From positions 31,203 to 95,202 of the IMG/VR virus record IMGVR_UViG_3300033067_000504: a stretch of DNA of 64,000 nucleotides. One strand, written 5' to 3'. The stretch is from a virus (lineage: Duplodnaviria; Heunggongvirae; Uroviricota; Caudoviricetes). Below, piece by piece: positions 50,067 through 59,077 of the stretch (the stretch's first letter is position 1; every line of letters begins with the position of its first letter). A program made the translations under genes and the position numbers. Below the pieces are notes generated by a model. That model had not been told where the DNA came from. It worked only from the letters and a program-made list of their open reading frames with translations, and made no database searches.

Positions 50067-50124
50067 GCTTCAAATATAAAACTAGTTTATTAGATCTCCA
50101 AATATTTTTTGTGTTTTATTTTAG

Positions 50125-50208
50125 TGCCTCTGGTAGGACTCGAACCTACTCACCCCTAAGGGAACAGATTTACAGTCTGTCGTAACTCTCCAACTTTACC
50201 GCATAGGC
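50125..50208 (-). tRNA. tRNA-Tyr (GTA), type II with long variable arm
   Basis: Hand-folded: anticodon stem-loop ACAGA-CTGTAAA-TCTGT; T-arm GTAGG-TTCGAGT-CCTAC; long variable arm. One mismatch in the acceptor stem; no encoded CCA. Confidence 0.7.
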
Positions 50209-50213
50209 TTAAG

Positions 50214-50299
50214 TACTCCTAACAGGAATCGAACCTGTACCCCTATTACTAGGGAAGGGATTTTAAGTCCCTCGCGTCTACCAGTTCCGCCATAGGAGC
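50214..50299 (-). tRNA. tRNA-Leu (TAA)
   Basis: Hand-folded: anticodon loop CTTAAAA; T-arm ACAGG-TTCGATT-CCTGT; long variable arm; G1-U72. Confidence 0.7.
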
Positions 50300-50304
50300 A
50301 ATTG

Positions 50305-50377
50305 AGGGGAAGGTAAGGATCGAACTTACGACCTAGACATTAACAGTGTCTTGCTACTTCCGCTGAGCTACTTCCCC
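50305..50377 (-). tRNA. tRNA-Asn (GTT)
   Basis: Acceptor GGGGAAG/CTTCCCC perfect; anticodon AGACA-CTGTTAA-TGTCT; T-arm GTAAG-TTCGATC-CTTAC. Confidence 0.75.
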
Positions 50378-50382
50378 TTTAG

Positions 50383-50464
50383 TACTTTAGGAGGGACTCG
50401 AACCCCCACGCCTTTCGGCACCAGATCCTAAGTCTGGCGTGTCTACCAGTTCCACCACTAGAGC
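50383..50464 (-). tRNA. tRNA-Leu (TAG)
   Basis: Anticodon CCAGA-CTTAGGA-TCTGG; variable-arm hairpin GCCGAAAGGC; T-loop TTCGAGT; acceptor has G1-U72 and one C-A mismatch. Confidence 0.6.
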
Positions 50465-50469
50465 GTAAG

Positions 50470-50541
50470 GTGTTAGATGAGATTTGAACTCACGATCAAG
50501 GTTCCACAAACCTATGCTTTAGGCCGCTAAGCTACTAACAC
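50470..50541 (-). tRNA. tRNA-His (GTG), no genomically encoded G-1
   Basis: Acceptor GTGTTAG/CTAACAC perfect; anticodon TAGGT-TTGTGGA-ACCTT; T-arm GTGAG-TTCAAAT-CTCAT; discriminator C; position -1 is U. Confidence 0.7.
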
Positions 50542-50543
50542 AG

Positions 50544-50620
50544 TAAGGTATCCAGGATTTGAACCTGGGAATCTCTTCCTTCCAAGGGAAGCGAGGACGA
50601 CCGGACTCCTCCAATACCTT
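50544..50620 (-). tRNA. tRNA-Pro (TGG)
   Basis: Acceptor AAGGTAT/ATACCTT; D-arm GAGG-AGTCCGGTCGT-CCTC; anticodon CTTCC-CTTGGAA-GGAAG; T-arm CCAGG-TTCAAAT-CCTGG. Confidence 0.75.
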
Positions 50621-55386: not shown

Positions 55387-56112
55387 ATGAAAATACAAAT
55401 AGTGAAAAAGGATAGCAGTAAGAAATTCAATTTTCTTGCTGGTATAAATCGTGCAATTCGTCCAGCGCAAGTAACTAGACTAGCAGAGTCTCTAAAGAAA
55501 ATGGGATGTCTTAGACCAGTTGTTATTGCCCACCTCTCTTTTAAAGAGCTAGTAGGTAACTACGTTATTGATGGTCAACACCTATTTCATGCACTCATTC
55601 GTAATAATATGGATATCCCATTTGTTATGATAGATGTAGCAGATGAGCAAGACTTAGTAGAAAAGTTAGCACTACTAAATAATAGCTCAAAAAGTTGGAC
55701 ACTTGCTGACTATCTACAGGTGTGGGCATGGAGAAGTGAGGAATATAAAAAGCTTCTCAAATATTACAATACCTATGATTTTGAAATAGGAATTCTTGCA
55801 TCTATTCTTTCTGGTAGGGTAGATGGGGGATCACTTACGCAAATGATTAAGCGTGGAAAGTTTAAGGTTGTAAATGAAGAACAAAATAAGAATCTGTTAG
55901 ATTATCTAACGGACGTACTTGCAATAGTTCCTAGAATGCGTAGATTTGAAAACAGATACCTCTGCAAAGAGTATGTGACGTTCTATCGTGCAATGGGTAG
56001 TAAGTATGACCATGCAAAGTTTCTTAAAAAGCTAAGCAAAAACAAGCTAGAATTTGTGCTTGCAACACAAGAACCAGGTAAGCTAGTGAATTTATTCACT
56101 CACTTGGTATAA
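55387..56112 (+). CDS. ParB/sulfiredoxin-fold (DGQH motif) nuclease-like protein, 241 aa
   Basis: YVIDGQHLFHAL resembles the ParB-N / DndB-type DGQHR catalytic-loop region. Confidence 0.4.
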   Translation: MKIQIVKKDSSKKFNFLAGINRAIRPAQVTRLAESLKKMGCLRPVVIAHLSFKELVGNYVIDGQHLFHALIRNNMDIPFVMIDVADEQDLVEKLALLNNSSKSWTLADYLQVWAWRSEEYKKLLKYYNTYDFEIGILASILSGRVDGGSLTQMIKRGKFKVVNEEQNKNLLDYLTDVLAIVPRMRRFENRYLCKEYVTFYRAMGSKYDHAKFLKKLSKNKLEFVLATQEPGKLVNLFTHLV

Positions 56113-56394: not shown

Positions 56395-56406
56395 AACAAA
56401 CACAAG

Positions 56407-58104
56407 ATGTTTAAGCAAAAACAAAAACAACTGATTGAGATTTCTCAATCAACATCTGGCACAACCACAATGGAATCACCATTTGTAGCAGCTGCAAACA
56501 AGAAATCAGCACGTACCTTAAGTGGTAATGGTGCACTCAAATACTCAACAACAGGTAATGACTTTGTTGATCAATTTGGTAAGCTAGGATCTTATAAAAC
56601 TCCTCGTACATATGAAGAGATAGCTAATGATATGGCAACACTGTGGGCAATAAACCCATTGCTAACTGTATGCTTTACTCTGTTCATTCGTATGATTACA
56701 AGAGTGGTAGTATCATTTGATGGTATCAAGACAGCATCACCTCAACGTGGAGCAGGATTGAAAAATGAAGGTATTATGAGAATGATGTGGATTAACATCA
56801 ATCATCGTGATACGTTCTGGAAGAACTTTGGTTTATTTGTTATGGTGGGTTCATGGAAAGATGTCTTTGTGATGTTGTCCTTAGATCTTCAGTATAATGG
56901 ATGGAAATCAAGAATGTTAGATTGGGATAAGTTTGGACAAGCAATACTTGTTGGACTTGAGAATCCTAATACTACCAACTTGGTTAAGAAATATCTACCC
57001 CAACTAAAATCAAACGCACAGTGTAAAACATTGGAATCACAAGCTAATAACATCATTGCAAAATGGTTGTGCAGCTTGTTGTTTGGTGGTAAAAATGGTG
57101 ATACACAGTTTCAGAATTATAAGAAGTATCGCCAGTTAAAAACCAGTGGTACAGCTCACACATGGCAACAACACATATCTCGTAAAGATCTAATTAAGCT
57201 TGACTTTAATACTGTACATGGTAGAGCTTTAGCTCAAATGGTGTCAGGTAAGTTCTTGGCTAATAACGGATTAGAGAAGAGGTATGAGGAATGGATAGCT
57301 AACAAACCAATAGCTAAGTTTACTGGTTATGTAACTGAGTTGTTCATCAAAACTCCAGAGAAGAAGTATCAAATTGATACATTGAATGCTCAGTTCAATG
57401 GATTAATAGAAACAGCAAAAAAGAGTGCAATTACTGCAACAAACTTTATTTCTGTTGTTGATACCAGTGGTTCAATGAGTACACCTAATAGTGGAATCAA
57501 GATGGAGAATGTGGATGTTGCTAAGTCATTAGCATTATTCTTCTCACAAATGTTAAACAAAGGTCCATTTGCTAACGCATGGTTTGAGTTTAACAGTTTT
57601 GCGGTTCTTCATACCATTAAAGGTTCAACACCTTGGGAGAAATGGTGTGACATGAAGAGATATAGTCATACTGGTAGTACAAACTTTATTTCAGTAGTAG
57701 AATATCTAATTGATATCAGGAAAAAGAATCCAAAGTTAGCAGAATCAGATTTCCCACAAGGATTTCTGGTAATGTCAGACATGGAGTTCAATCCTACTCA
57801 GTTTGGTACTAATACTGAAACTGTATTCAAGAGATTGCGTACAGTATTCTCTAAAGAGTTTGTAAACAACTTTAAACTTGTATTCTGGAACCTACAAAGC
57901 AATGCGTATGGTCGAGGAACAGGTGAAAAGTTTGAAACACATGGTAATGAGAAGAATGTATTCTATTTCTCAGGATACGATGGTAGCATAGTAGCATTCT
58001 TAACTGGTGTGGAGGGTAAAGCTGAAAAGCCTACACCCACTACTGCAGAAGAGTTGTTCAAAGCCGCTATGGACCAAGAGGTTCTTAAACTTGTAGAAAT
58101 TTAA
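56407..58104 (+). CDS. vWA-domain protein with an N-terminal helical domain, candidate Ro60/Rsr-like (TROVE+vWA) RNA-binding protein; alternative: DUF2828-type vWA protein
   Basis: Canonical MIDAS motif VVDTSGSMS at aa ~345 with downstream Thr and Asp candidates. The 565-aa length and vWA placement match Ro60 orthologues. The gene is immediately followed by an array of tRNA-mimic structured RNAs, as at rsr-yrlA loci. Confidence 0.5.
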   Translation: MFKQKQKQLIEISQSTSGTTTMESPFVAAANKKSARTLSGNGALKYSTTGNDFVDQFGKLGSYKTPRTYEEIANDMATLWAINPLLTVCFTLFIRMITRVVVSFDGIKTASPQRGAGLKNEGIMRMMWININHRDTFWKNFGLFVMVGSWKDVFVMLSLDLQYNGWKSRMLDWDKFGQAILVGLENPNTTNLVKKYLPQLKSNAQCKTLESQANNIIAKWLCSLLFGGKNGDTQFQNYKKYRQLKTSGTAHTWQQHISRKDLIKLDFNTVHGRALAQMVSGKFLANNGLEKRYEEWIANKPIAKFTGYVTELFIKTPEKKYQIDTLNAQFNGLIETAKKSAITATNFISVVDTSGSMSTPNSGIKMENVDVAKSLALFFSQMLNKGPFANAWFEFNSFAVLHTIKGSTPWEKWCDMKRYSHTGSTNFISVVEYLIDIRKKNPKLAESDFPQGFLVMSDMEFNPTQFGTNTETVFKRLRTVFSKEFVNNFKLVFWNLQSNAYGRGTGEKFETHGNEKNVFYFSGYDGSIVAFLTGVEGKAEKPTPTTAEELFKAAMDQEVLKLVEI

Positions 58105-58140
58105 AATCTTACTGTGACAAGTAAGTGGGGCGGCAAAAGT

Positions 58141-58168
58141 GATAGGTGTAACAGCCTATCACTTTTAT
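58141..58168 (+). terminator. hairpin GATAGG-TGTAACAGC-CCTATC plus T-run; also carries the AACAGC motif in its loop (element 0 of the RNA array)
   Basis: 6-bp stem with the loop sequence shared with the downstream repeat bulge, followed by ACTTTTAT. Confidence 0.4.
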
Positions 58169-58169
58169 A

Positions 58170-58232
58170 AGAGCAGAAACAGCAAATTTAAAAACAATCA
58201 AAGGTTAATTGATAAAGTTAAATCACTGCTCT
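58170..58232 (+). ncRNA. structured RNA unit A (outer helix AGAGCAG/CTGCTCT, AACAGCA bulge, inner ATTTAA/TTAAAT helix)
   Basis: Complementary 7-nt ends flank the conserved bulge motif. Confidence 0.45.
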
Positions 58233-58237
58233 GATAA

Positions 58238-58295
58238 GATTACCAACAGCAAATCAAAAAACTTCTAAATTTACTTGGAAAAACAGATGGTAATC
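58238..58295 (+). ncRNA. structured RNA unit B (outer helix GATTACC/GGTAATC, AACAGCA bulge)
   Basis: Same architecture with a different, compensatory outer helix. Confidence 0.45.
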
Positions 58296-58301
58296 TGATA
58301 A

Positions 58302-58423
58302 GTTCTGTAACAGCAATTTTAAAGCTAATTCCAACAGTGGGTCGCAAGTTCGAGTCTTGCATGGTTCGTAAGAGCCATTAGCTCAGGTGGTAGAGCAACC
58401 GTCAATGCAAAAAAATTCAGAAC
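58302..58423 (+). ncRNA. Y RNA (YrlA)-like unit C carrying a tRNA mimic
   Basis: Outer helix GTTCTG/CAGAAC; bulge TAACAGC; inner AATTTT/AAAATT. Apical module: T-arm GCAAG-TTCGAGT-CTTGC, ATGGTTC, GTAA loop, GAGCCAT (complementary, G-U at one position), U8, D-arm GCTC-AGGTGGTAG-AGC with G18G19. Confidence 0.55.
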
Positions 58424-58429
58424 TGATAA

Positions 58430-58544
58430 TGTGAGTAACAGCAATTTTAAATGAATTTGGTTCCGTAGACGTAGGTTCGATCCCTACACCCCTACCATAA
58501 GGTTTGGGTTCGTCTAGTGGCTAGGACAACGTAAAATTCTCACA
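58430..58544 (+). ncRNA. Y RNA (YrlA)-like unit D carrying a tRNA mimic
   Basis: Outer helix (A)TGTGAG/CTCACA(T); bulge TAACAGC; inner AATTTTA/TAAAATT. T-arm GTAGG-TTCGATC-CCTAC, ACCCCTACC-ATAA-GGTTTGGGT acceptor-like hairpin (7 of 9 bp), D-arm GTCT-AGTGGCTA-GGAC. Confidence 0.5.
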
Positions 58545-58550
58545 TGATAA

Positions 58551-58646
58551 AGTGTCACGCAGCAAAACAAAAACTATTCTTTTTGAAACAGAGACGAAGC
58601 TTGGAGGCTAGTAATAGTACGGGTTCGATTCCCCGAATTTGACACT
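58551..58646 (+). ncRNA. structured RNA unit E (outer helix AGTGTCA/TGACACT, variant CGCAGCA bulge, T-arm-like CGGG-TTCGATT-CCCG element)
   Basis: Same outer-helix/bulge architecture; the apical part holds a T-arm-like hairpin only. Confidence 0.4.
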
Positions 58647-58663
58647 TGTTAAACAAACAAACT

Positions 58664-59077
58664 ATGAAACATTTATTCCTTATTCTAATCCTATTTGCTA
58701 CAGCTTGTTCTAAACAGGATGTAGCACCCAAAGCACCAATAACTATTGAAGGCAATTGGAGCTTTGATTTCACTGATAAAACTGTTGGTGGCTCATTTAC
58801 TATTGAAACAGTAAATAATAAACTGGCAGTGACTAAAGGTTCTTATTATACTACCTGTTGTGGTGGTATTAAGAATACAGTAATCATTGGTAAAGTTACA
58901 CAACTACCTGATGATAAGACAGTTATTACATTACAAGGAGCTGATATTAGTAATGCACTGATACTGCATGTAAGCTCTATTAGTACAGATGGTAACACAA
59001 TAATCAGTGATAATACTACTGATTACCACACGTTACAGTTCTGGACACAAGTAGTAACAATTAAACGTACACTCTAA
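58664..59077 (+). CDS. lipoprotein, ~138 aa
   Basis: MKHLFLILILFATAC: signal peptide plus lipobox (FATAC) from the ATG at 58664. The track's 58646 start is a TTG inside RNA unit E and is unlikely. Confidence 0.5.
   Translation: MKHLFLILILFATACSKQDVAPKAPITIEGNWSFDFTDKTVGGSFTIETVNNKLAVTKGSYYTTCCGGIKNTVIIGKVTQLPDDKTVITLQGADISNALILHVSSISTDGNTIISDNTTDYHTLQFWTQVVTIKRTL

What the first reader, a model, noticed from the sequence alone, without database searches (positions are those of the whole stretch)
58233..58550. Conserved (T)GATAA linkers between consecutive RNA units: likely processing sites of a polycistronic precursor
Every junction between units is the same short sequence: CTGCTCT-GATAA-GATTACC, GGTAATC-TGATAA-GTTCTG, CAGAAC-TGATAA-TGTGAG, CTCACA-TGATAA-AGTGTCA. 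Only one strong terminator-like hairpin precedes the array and none separates units. This suggests a single transcript cleaved at AU-rich single-stranded linkers (RNase E-like) into individual Y-RNA-like molecules, analogous to tRNA-array processing.
Basis: inference. Interest (0 to 1): 0.5.

Follow-up and report, generated by a model that had tools for sequence, protein, structure and literature searches.

The report
Junctions of a phage Ro-RNA array
The repeated TGATAA "linkers" are real, but they are mostly the conserved end nucleotides of five back-to-back small RNAs that partner a phage Ro60-like protein, and this RNA class closely resembles the enigmatic Class I RNAs of social amoebae.

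Summary
Five tandem RNA units (58170-58647, + strand) are joined by four identical T-GATA-A junctions. In 115 non-identical junctions from related phage contigs, 92 are 4 nt long and 68 read GATA.

Co-transcription is well supported: spacers are 4 nt, there are no internal promoter or terminator matches, and in relatives promoters and terminators lie only outside the arrays or tRNAs sit between units. Cleavage is inferred.

The junction sequence is not mainly a nuclease site:
- T and the final A are the closing A-U pairs of neighbouring terminal stems.
- G(+1) is kept after last units (95%) and in every distant phage examined.
- A(-1) and A(-3) are kept before first units (100% and 90%).
- The same A|AG...CU|G frame surrounds the start codon of the adjacent Ro60-like gene, where no array needs cutting.
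- It matches the published termini (AAG...CUGU) of Dictyostelium Class I RNAs.

Each unit is a constant handle (stem plus (U/A)ACAGCAA) carrying a variable tRNA-like cargo.

There is no evidence for RNase E specifically. The same ends occur in phages of Firmicutes, which lack it.

Verdict: a new variant of the Ro60/Y-RNA type of particle, with a surprising link to Class I RNAs.

The parts
56405..56458 (+). Handle-like fold over the start codon of the Ro-like gene: 5' arm AGAUGUU (56405-56411, AUG at 56407), degenerate motif UAAGCAAAA, inner hairpin, 3' arm AACAUCU (56451-56457), G(+1) at 56458. Candidate site of autoregulation.
   Evidence: Sequence read. In relatives the covariance model hits the gene start in 7 loci. 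Of 20 distinct gene starts preceded by AG, 13 have the exact complementary 6-mer followed by G within 25-95 nt; 0 of 16 starts without AG do.
56407..58104 (+). 565-aa Ro60-like protein (DUF2828/DUF7788 family: helical ring domain plus vWA domain with a DTSGS MIDAS motif).
   Evidence: Pfam DUF7788, 2.9e-20. PHROG 850 'RNA-binding protein', 1.3e-34. AlphaFold model with pLDDT 82.7. Best PDB matches are Ro60 structures over the full length: 2i91 E 1.7e-7, 9kop, 9l5y, 2nvo.
58135..58166 (+). 13-bp hairpin directly before the array; its 3' arm ends in UUUU.
   Evidence: Fold -23 kcal/mol, z -3.8. Not scored as a terminator. Strong hairpins precede unit 1 in many related arrays and follow the promoter in Staphylococcus phage Alsa_1.
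58167..58169 (+). AUA leader of unit 0. It is the same three bases as the AUA of each GAUA junction, although no unit precedes it.
   Evidence: Logos of first units: A(-3) 90%, A(-1) 100%.
58170..58232 (+). Unit 0 (63 nt): stem AGAGCAG/CUGCUCU, motif AAACAGCAA, inner hairpin with a 7-nt loop.
   Evidence: Model R1 scores 49.0 bits, E 8.6e-10.
58233..58236 (+). Junction 1, GAUA: G(+1) of unit 0, then A and U, then A(-1) of unit 1.
58237..58296 (+). Unit 1 (60 nt): stem AGAUUACC/GGUAAUCU, motif AACAGCAA, anticodon-arm-like hairpin (loop AAUUUAC).
   Evidence: R1 52.8 bits. Rfam Dicty_Class_I_RNA 31.7 bits, E 5.5e-4, full-length match to the model.
58297..58300 (+). Junction 2, GAUA.
58301..58424 (+). 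Unit 2 (124 nt): stem AGUUCUG/CAGAACU, motif UAACAGCAA, cargo of T-arm, closed acceptor-like stem and D-arm.
   Evidence: Rfam YrlA 36.5 bits, E 2.7e-6, for 58337-58399, covering the tRNA-like part of the model only. Fold.
58425..58428 (+). Junction 3, GAUA.
58429..58545 (+). Unit 3 (117 nt): stem AUGUGAG/CUCACAU, motif UAACAGCAA, cargo with a T-arm (GUAGGUUCGAUCCCUAC) and a D-arm-like hairpin.
   Evidence: (T-arm fragment match).
58546..58549 (+). Junction 4, GAUA.
58550..58647 (+). Unit 4 (98 nt): stem AAGUGUCA/UGACACUU, motif variant CGCAGCAA, cargo with a T-arm (GGGUUCGAUUCCC).
58648..58648 (+). G(+1) after the last unit. The next gene (lipoprotein-like, ATG at 58664) follows 16 nt later with no terminator in between.
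   Evidence: G(+1) follows 95% of last units.

Best explanation
The region is an array of five small RNAs that partner the Ro60-like protein encoded just upstream. Each RNA has a constant handle and a variable cargo. The handle is a 7-9 bp stem joining the two ends, opened by conserved A-U and G-C (or A-U) pairs. It is flanked by an unpaired A on the 5' side and an unpaired G on the 3' side, and (U/A)ACAGCAA starts exactly 10 nt from the first paired base. The cargo copies parts of tRNA: an anticodon-arm-like hairpin, or a T-arm, closed acceptor and D-arm module, or in relatives almost a whole tRNA. Read in this frame, U|G-A-U-A|A is the last base pair of unit n, its 3' G, two spacer bases, the 5' A of unit n+1, and that unit's first base pair. 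The array is transcribed as one precursor and is most probably cut once inside each 4-nt junction, next to the central U. That would give monomers of the form 5'-AAG...CUG(A)-3', whose ends are defined or protected by the bound protein. Shown here: the anatomy, its conservation, the Ro60-like fold, and the fact that the flanks belong to the units. Inferred: co-transcription (strongly), cleavage, protein binding to the handle, and the position of the cut. The nuclease is unknown.
For: Four of four junctions are identical. GAUA is 68 of 92 four-nt junctions in relatives. The distance from unit start to CAGCAA is fixed at 10 nt and the stem arms differ between units. All 124 model hits lie on the gene's strand. 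The flanks belong to the units: G(+1) is 95% after last units and A(-1) 100% before first units, whereas G(-4) is only 24% before first units. G(+1) is present after units in seven distant phage groups with long or tRNA-containing spacers. The same frame surrounds the Ro-like gene's own start codon, where no array processing applies. Dictyostelid Class I RNAs, which share the stem, the ACAGCAA motif and the register, have ends AAG...CUGU, with CUGU included in the mature RNA according to RNA-seq. The Rfam Class I model hits the units end to end at 28-39 bits. The protein has a Ro60 fold. Evidence for one transcript: no internal promoter or terminator; terminators only after the last unit in L013, L015 and L088, and 38 nt downstream of a further, variant unit in L030; promoters before unit 1 in Staphylococcus and Listeria phages; tRNAs interleaved or abutting. 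No known self-cleaving ribozyme family matches, even at E<=10.
Against: No RNA ends have been mapped for any phage member, so monomers are not demonstrated. The middle AU of the junction is also fairly conserved (A 76%, U 66%). The Class I analogy only partly explains this, so some cleavage-site constraint may exist. Unit selection required a 7-bp stem, so the pair statistics are circular; the strand asymmetry and the array clustering are the independent controls. Binding of the Ro-like protein to the handle is inferred from adjacency and from the start-codon mimic, not shown. In the window the start-codon mimic has a degenerate motif.
Confidence: 0.6

Rival explanations
1. One reading: the linker is conserved because it is an AU-rich single-stranded recognition and cleavage site for a host RNase E-type enzyme, as in tRNA operons.
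For: The junctions are unpaired and A/U-rich between two stems. The middle AU is conserved above background. The 4-nt GAUA form is found in the window's clade and in a phage of a cyanobacterium, a phylum that has RNase E (host enzyme from general knowledge). The units share operons with tRNAs.
Against: G(+1), A(-1) and A(-3) are equally conserved where there is no neighbouring unit. They are also conserved at the Ro-like gene's start codon and in individually transcribed Class I RNAs. The same ends occur in phages of Staphylococcus, Listeria and Bacillus, which lack RNase E (general knowledge). GAUAAG does not fit RN|WUU (from memory). The window's own tRNA array uses different 4-nt spacers: CTAA, CAAT, CTTA, TTAC.
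Confidence: 0.2
2. The array is not cut. It acts as one multivalent RNA that carries several Ro-like proteins and several tRNA-like baits, and GAUA is only a hinge.
For: No processing data exist. Spacer length is tightly fixed at 4 nt (92 of 115 junctions), which could reflect geometry. No nuclease is encoded next to the array.
Against: Relatives have solitary units, spacers of 8-33 nt, and tRNAs between units. tRNAs have to be excised, and excising them necessarily separates the units. The conserved flank nucleotides equal the mature ends of Class I RNAs.
Confidence: 0.15
3. Each unit has its own promoter, or the repeat acts at the DNA level (a protein-binding iteron, or tandem TGA-TAA stop codons), or it is chance.
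For: TGATAA reads as two in-frame stop codons. The motif recurs at regular places.
Against: Four nucleotides leave no room for a promoter, and none is predicted inside the array. The stem arms differ between units while staying complementary, all hits are on one strand, and unit lengths put the TGATAA copies in different frames. Chance is excluded.
Confidence: 0.03

Closest known systems
Bacterial and phage Y RNAs (YrlA, Yrl1/2) with Ro60/Rsr
   Same: The RNAs are encoded next to a Ro60-fold protein. The 5' and 3' ends pair. Some units carry a T-arm, closed acceptor and D-arm module that matches the Rfam YrlA core. A mycobacteriophage 'Ro-like' gene is followed by three such units, the middle one resembling YrlA. 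Chen 2014 reported YrlA-like RNAs beside Ro60 orthologues in several mycobacteriophages (PMC4201824). The Thermus phage phiLo Ro60 binds two adjacent Yrl RNAs (PMC12135203).
   Different: The handle has (U/A)ACAGCAA instead of the CGAA/GNCGAAN0-1G bulged helix. The YrlA model's terminal stems do not align and scores stay below the gathering score (36-42 against 69). Many units have no tRNA-like elbow, only an anticodon-arm-like hairpin. Units are chained with 4-nt junctions. The protein is in the DUF2828/DUF7788 family rather than Pfam TROVE.
Class I RNAs of dictyostelid amoebae (Rfam RF01414)
   Same: They are 42-65 nt long, with a short terminal stem of variable sequence and a conserved motif ..UACAGCAA directly after the 5' arm in nearly the same register (one base longer in the Rfam alignments). 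The interior is variable and A-rich. The termini are AAG...CUG(U).
   Different: Class I genes are scattered, each with its own DUSE promoter and T-run, not arrayed. Class I RNAs are described as unique to Dictyostelia. Their known direct binder is the RRM protein Rnp1A/CIBP. Phage units score 28-39 bits, below the gathering score of 41.5. Phage units can carry large tRNA-like inserts.
Polycistronic tRNA operons matured by RNase E, P and Z
   Same: Compact head-to-tail structured RNAs with spacers of a few nucleotides. The phage units lie in or beside tRNA clusters.
   Different: The ends lie at a stem that is not an acceptor stem. There is no CCA or RNase P/Z-type context, and the junction sequence differs from the spacers of the window's own tRNA array.
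Type III toxin-antitoxin RNA arrays (ToxI/ToxN); comparison from memory
   Same: A tandem array of short structured RNAs lies next to the gene of the protein they bind, separated by a hairpin, and is cut into monomers at a fixed short sequence.
   Different: ToxI repeats are near-identical copies and are cut by the partner endoribonuclease. Here the units differ, only the handle is shared, and the partner has a Ro60 fold with no nuclease domain detected.

Membership tests
Y RNA / YrlA (RF02553) | Encoded adjacent to a Ro60/Rsr orthologue | tested here: met
   The array starts 66 nt after a gene whose model matches Ro60 structures over its full length. The adjacency recurs in more than 40 loci.
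Y RNA / YrlA (RF02553) | Terminal helix with the conserved Ro-binding bulge (CGAA / GNCGAAN0-1G motif) | tested here: not met
   The handle carries ACAGCAA. YrlA model positions 1-23 and 85-114 are either not matched or are aligned with many non-pairs.
Y RNA / YrlA (RF02553) | tRNA-like domain (T-arm, closed acceptor, D-arm) | tested here: met
   Met for unit 2 (36.5 bits, model positions 24-84) and, by reading, for unit 3. Absent from units 0 and 1.
Y RNA / YrlA (RF02553) | Reaches Rfam's gathering score (69 bits) | tested here: not met
   36.5 bits in the window; 31-42 bits in relatives.
Dictyostelid Class I RNA (RF01414) | Short stem joining the 5' and 3' ends, variable in sequence | tested here: met
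   7-9 bp in all five units. The arms differ between units and across 74 aligned units.
Dictyostelid Class I RNA (RF01414) | Conserved 11-nt motif (CCUUACAGCAA) next to the 5' arm | tested here: inconclusive
   The 7-8 nt core (U/A)ACAGCAA is invariant in nearly the same register (the Rfam alignments need a one-base deletion); the first 3-4 positions differ.
Dictyostelid Class I RNA (RF01414) | Conserved termini AAG...CUGU in the mature RNA | not testable with these tools
   The genomic flanks match: A(-1) A G ... C U G(+1). Mature phage RNA ends are unknown.
Dictyostelid Class I RNA (RF01414) | Reaches Rfam's gathering score (41.5 bits) | tested here: not met
   31.7 bits in the window; up to 39.3 bits in Leptolyngbya phage Lbo-JY46.
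Dictyostelid Class I RNA (RF01414) | Independent genes, each with an upstream DUSE element | tested here: not met
   The units are chained with 4-nt spacers. DUSE is a eukaryotic element.
RNase E-processed polycistronic precursor | Units co-transcribed, with no internal promoters or terminators | tested here: met
   Consensus scans find none inside the array; comparative context. This is inference, not transcript data.
RNase E-processed polycistronic precursor | Cleavage by RNase E at the spacer | not testable with these tools
   No transcript ends are available. The same unit ends occur in phages of hosts without RNase E.
Ro60 / TROVE protein | Ring of helical repeats plus a vWA domain with a MIDAS motif | tested here: met
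   Foldseek probability 1.0 to 2i91, 1yvr, 9kop, 9l5y and 2nvo over about 520-570 alignment columns. DTSGS is present in the sequence.
Ro60 / TROVE protein | Sequence-level match to solved Ro60 chains or to Pfam TROVE | tested here: not met
   Only DUF7788 passes in Pfam. No PDB chain is matched by sequence at E<=1.

The most novel reading that the evidence does not exclude
The phage handle RNAs and the Class I RNAs of Dictyostelium would be one RNA class whose conserved stem, ACAGCAA motif and AAG...CUG ends form the docking site for a DUF2828-type Ro60-like protein. On this reading Class I RNAs are not unique to social amoebae, as published. They would be the amoebal branch of a widespread virus-borne Ro-like particle. 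Their missing partner could then be a DUF2828 protein. [quoted passage not shown] In phages the particle would display tRNA mimics, would repress its own mRNA through a handle copy on the start codon, and would be made from arrays cut at the GAUA junctions.
Probability: 0.35. Interest if true: 0.85.

Novelty: new variant of a known kind. Interest (0 to 1): 0.68.

Why it matters
Phage Ro60-like proteins are common: 494-703 GenBank phage records have a homologue, including Felix O1, the Listeria phage P100 and relatives of Staphylococcus phage Twort. Outside mycobacteriophages and one Thermus phage, I found no description of their RNA partners in the papers I could search.

This work defines a simple, searchable handle and shows that it carries interchangeable tRNA mimics. 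It also explains the conserved junction as RNA ends rather than a nuclease site.

Three testable ideas follow:
- The arrays mature by one cut per junction.
- The protein represses its own translation by binding a copy of the handle on its start codon.
- The Class I RNAs of Dictyostelium, whose molecular function is still undefined, belong to the same kind of particle.

Cultured phages that carry the system make experiments straightforward: Leptolyngbya phage Lbo-JY46, Felix O1, Listeria phage cka15/P100 and Staphylococcus phage Alsa_1.

Tried and rejected
- A single-sequence scan of viral contigs found no relatives; the profile scan did.
- A sequence search of the PDB found nothing; only fold comparison revealed Ro60.
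- Rfam at gathering score sees only the six tRNAs of the window. At E<=10 no self-cleaving ribozyme or other family fits the array, so a ribozyme explanation was dropped.
- Literature searches for DUF2828, PF11443 and DUF7788 gave nothing on function.
- DDB_G0281243 appears in one preprint only, as 'function unknown'. Avesson 2011 is not held, and the AlphaFold library needed to look for Dictyostelium DUF2828 proteins was unavailable. The amoebal protein link is therefore untested.
- The Listeria cka15 paper's supplement has no transcript coordinates. Its most abundant RNA region (CKA15_059-061) is a different RNA: it is not hit by my model or by Rfam.
- The Bacteroidetes -7 box TAnnTTTG is not enriched in the window and is absent before this array, so the host and the promoter of the window's array remain open.
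- The pair counts are circular, because units were chosen for having a stem. I do not use them as proof of structure.
- Type III toxin-antitoxin arrays and CRISPR-like arrays were considered and rejected: the units are not repeats of one sequence, and no nuclease is adjacent.

Full report
**Observation**

TGATAA lies at 58232, 58296, 58424 and 58545 on the + strand. The hexamer occurs 84 times on both strands of the window. Five copies on one strand within 341 nt compares with about 0.22 expected (my arithmetic).

Each copy sits exactly between the 3' arm of one terminal stem and the 5' arm of the next. There are five units:
- U0: 58170-58232
- U1: 58237-58296
- U2: 58301-58424
- U3: 58429-58545
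- U4: 58550-58647

The T and the last A of each TGATAA pair with the first A and last U of the flanking units. The unpaired spacer is therefore GAUA.

No promoter-like or terminator-like match lies on the + strand inside the array. The hairpin at 58135-58166 is strong (-23 kcal/mol, z -3.8), but AUAAG follows it rather than a T-run.

**What the units are**

Every unit has three shared features:
- a 7-9 bp stem joining its ends, whose sequence differs from unit to unit;
- the motif (U/A)ACAGCAA, whose CAGCAA always begins 10 nt after the first paired base;
- a 3' arm ending in (C/U)U.

The interior varies:
- U0 and U1 hold a small hairpin.
- U2 holds a T-arm, a closed acceptor-like stem and a D-arm. 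This part matches the core of Rfam YrlA at 36.5 bits, below the gathering score of 69.
- U3 and U4 hold T-arm-like hairpins.
- U1 matches the Rfam model of Dictyostelium Class I RNA end to end (31.7 bits, E 5.5e-4, gathering score 41.5).

**The neighbouring protein**

ORF 56407-58104 encodes 565 aa. It matches Pfam DUF7788 and PHROG 850 'RNA-binding protein', and many of its homologues also carry DUF2828. No solved structure matches by sequence.

An AlphaFold model (pLDDT 82.7) matches Ro60 structures over its full length. The hits are Xenopus 2i91 and 1yvr, human 9nfa, Thermus phage 9kop and 9l5y, and Deinococcus 2nvo, with E down to 1.7e-7 and probability 1.0. Isolated vWA domains come next. 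The gene therefore encodes a distant Ro60-like protein.

**Comparative evidence**

A profile of 31 homologues retrieved 80 viral loci. A finder anchored on CAGCAA plus a 7-bp terminal stem detects 43 arrays of 2-7 units, all on the gene's strand. Most lie just downstream of the gene and some upstream.

Of 115 non-identical junctions, 92 are 4 nt long: GATA 68, GACA 8, GAAA 7, GTTA 5.

A covariance model built from 74 short units gives 124 hits at E<=1e-3 in these loci, all on the + strand and none on the - strand.

The same model finds units beside the homologous gene in seven cultured phages:
- Leptolyngbya phage Lbo-JY46: five units with GAUA junctions
- Staphylococcus phage Alsa_1: three units
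- Salmonella phage Felix O1: three units interleaved with tRNAs
- Klebsiella phage KP2025
- Bacillus phage Thrax4
- Listeria phages LMTA-57 and cka15: three units directly upstream of the gene
- Mycobacterium phage Nicholasp3: a short unit, a YrlA-like unit and a short unit, then a terminator

Homologous proteins occur in 494-703 GenBank phage records.

**What the junction is made of**

Position-specific counts split GAUA into two halves.
- The G directly after the 3' arm is present in 97% of units, and in 95% of last units, which have no downstream neighbour.
- The A directly before the 5' arm is present in 99-100% of units, and A(-3) in about 90%. Both hold for first units.
- By contrast, G at -4 falls to 24% before first units.

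In the distant phages the spacers are 8-33 nt or contain tRNAs, yet a G follows the 3' arm after every confident model hit and every array unit I read there.

Two independent contexts show the same frame without any array.

First, the Ro-like gene's own start region. In many loci it reads ..A AG|AUG UUU (A/G)AC AGC AA ... (A)ACAUCU G. This is a handle whose 5' arm contains the start codon.
- The model hits it in seven loci.
- Of 20 distinct gene starts preceded by AG, 13 have the exact complementary 6-mer followed by G within 25-95 nt. The other seven keep AUCUG.
- None of the 16 starts without AG has such a complement.
- The window has the stem (56405-56411 with 56451-56457) and the G at 56458, with a degenerate motif.

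Second, Dictyostelium Class I RNAs. [quoted passage not shown] RNA-seq shows that CUGU is in the mature RNA (bioRxiv 10.1101/2020.04.05.026054). These genes are transcribed one by one.

The phage frame A(-1)-A-G...C-U-G(+1) is the same. The Rfam Class I model matches phage units from first to last position at 28-39 bits in several loci.

I therefore read the conservation of T-G-A-T-A-A mainly as conservation of RNA ends and of a protein-docking frame. Only the central A and U (76% and 66%) are left as possible cleavage-site preference.

**Co-transcription and processing**

These points are inferred.
- Four nucleotides cannot hold a promoter or a terminator, and none is predicted.
- In relatives, intrinsic terminators follow only the last unit: L013 and L015 and the mycobacteriophage. 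In L030 the terminator lies 38 nt downstream of a further, variant unit.
- A sigma-A-type promoter plus leader precedes unit 1 in the Staphylococcus and Listeria phages.
- A TATCTTTG box precedes several arrays.
- tRNAs abut or alternate with units: L020, L027 and L045 at 6-8 nt, and Felix O1. Excising those tRNAs separates the units.

Because A(-3) and A(-1) are as conserved before first units as before internal ones, the first unit probably also loses a leader by the same step.

The Listeria cka15 study reports very abundant RNAs from unannotated regions near the tRNAs, with no intrinsic terminators at their 3' ends. It also found the Ro-like protein in virions (PMC12282133). I could not link its coordinates to the three units.

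**The nuclease**

Nothing here identifies it.
- RNase E is possible in some hosts, but the same unit ends occur in phages of Firmicutes, which lack RNase E (general knowledge).
- The window's own tRNA array uses other 4-nt spacers.
- No known ribozyme fits.

A simple alternative is any endonucleolytic nick followed by trimming back to the protein-protected handle.

**Comparison with known systems**

The closest system is Ro60/Rsr with Y RNAs, including YrlA-like RNAs beside mycobacteriophage Ro-like genes (PMC4201824) and Yrl1/2 of Thermus phage phiLo (PMC12135203). Five things differ here:
- the handle (ACAGCAA, not the CGAA bulge);
- the short units with anticodon-arm-like cargo;
- the nesting of whole tRNA-like bodies in some relatives;
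- the chaining with fixed 4-nt junctions;
- the start-codon mimic.

Neither Rfam family is reached at its gathering score, so I do not file the units as members of either.

The likeness to Class I RNAs is the most surprising result, since the paper states that these RNAs are unique to dictyostelids. DUF2828 proteins are also reported from mimivirus-like sequences. Whether Dictyostelium has such a protein could not be tested.

**Verdict**

The polycistronic-precursor idea is well supported by inference. The claim that the linker is an RNase E site is not supported: the sequence is better explained as the abutting conserved ends of Ro-like-particle RNAs.

Noticed in passing
window 56405-56458: The start codon of the Ro60-like gene lies inside a handle-like stem (AGAUGUU ... 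AACAUCU, then G). In relatives the full motif AG|AUG UUU AAC AGC AA ... ACAUCU G is present and is hit by the RNA model. This suggests the protein represses its own translation.
   Followed up: yes
window 58237-58296; L081:5733-5790; L023:6526-6583; L008:2138-2196: The Rfam model of Dictyostelium Class I RNA matches the phage units end to end (28-39 bits). The published Class I termini AAG...CUGU equal the phage flanks. The literature calls Class I RNAs unique to dictyostelids.
   Followed up: partly
short units in L001-L080 and window 58170-58296: 63 of 88 short units hold a hairpin with a 7-nt loop that resembles an anticodon loop (U at loop position 2 in 42, a purine at position 6 in 49). 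The commonest 'anticodon' is UUU (11 cases), then UUG, CUU, UGG and UGU. They may be decoys or baits for tRNA-targeting enzymes. AT-rich composition may inflate these counts.
   Followed up: partly
L030:2931-3050; L054:5489-5602: Some units nest a nearly complete tRNA inside the handle: ARAGORN calls a tRNA-Tyr at L030:2961-3033, and Rfam tRNA model positions 6-65 match L054:5528-5588.
   Followed up: partly
window 50124-50620 (- strand): Six tRNA genes (Pro, His, Leu, Asn, Leu, Tyr) lie head to tail. The spacers are 1-4 nt, four of them 4 nt (TTAC, CTAA, CAAT, CTTA), not GATA. No CCA is encoded.
   Followed up: partly
L089:3256-3518 (Listeria phage cka15, OR088597.1 25268-25607): Three units lie in an unannotated gap between a TTGACA promoter and CKA15_055. 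The published multi-omics paper found the CKA15_055 protein in virions and speculated about Y RNAs without locating them.
   Followed up: partly
L089:2050-2600: The region annotated as the small ORFs CKA15_059-061 is reported to give up to about 67% of phage transcripts. It follows a consensus promoter and looks like a roughly 550-nt non-coding RNA. It matches neither my model nor any Rfam family at gathering score.
   Followed up: partly
L088:2963-3219 (Mycobacterium phage Nicholasp3): The 'Ro-like' gene is followed by three units: UGGACGC-UAACAGCAA, a YrlA-like unit with UACAGUAA, and UGGUCAC-UAACAGCAA. Each ends CCA-G, and a strong terminator follows. The short flanking units are not among the mycobacteriophage YrlA-like RNAs mentioned in the passages of the 2014 paper that I read.
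   Followed up: partly
L004:5422-5781; L020:5320-5393; L027:5211-5282: A phage tmRNA gene follows one array. tRNAs with a CUA anticodon (amber suppressors; ARAGORN labels them 'Pyl') lie near two others, which hints at stop-codon reassignment in those phages.
   Followed up: no
window 58135-58166 and upstream of unit 1 in L015, L020, L023, L026, L027, L043, L048, L082: A strong hairpin ends 3-6 nt before the first unit in many arrays. In Staphylococcus phage Alsa_1 it lies downstream of the promoter, so it is part of the precursor's leader rather than only a terminator of the preceding gene.
   Followed up: partly
window 55387-56112 and 58664-59077: A ParB-like gene lies upstream of the Ro-like gene. 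A small lipoprotein-like ORF starts 16 nt after the array with no terminator in between, so the array may also be the leader of that mRNA.
   Followed up: no
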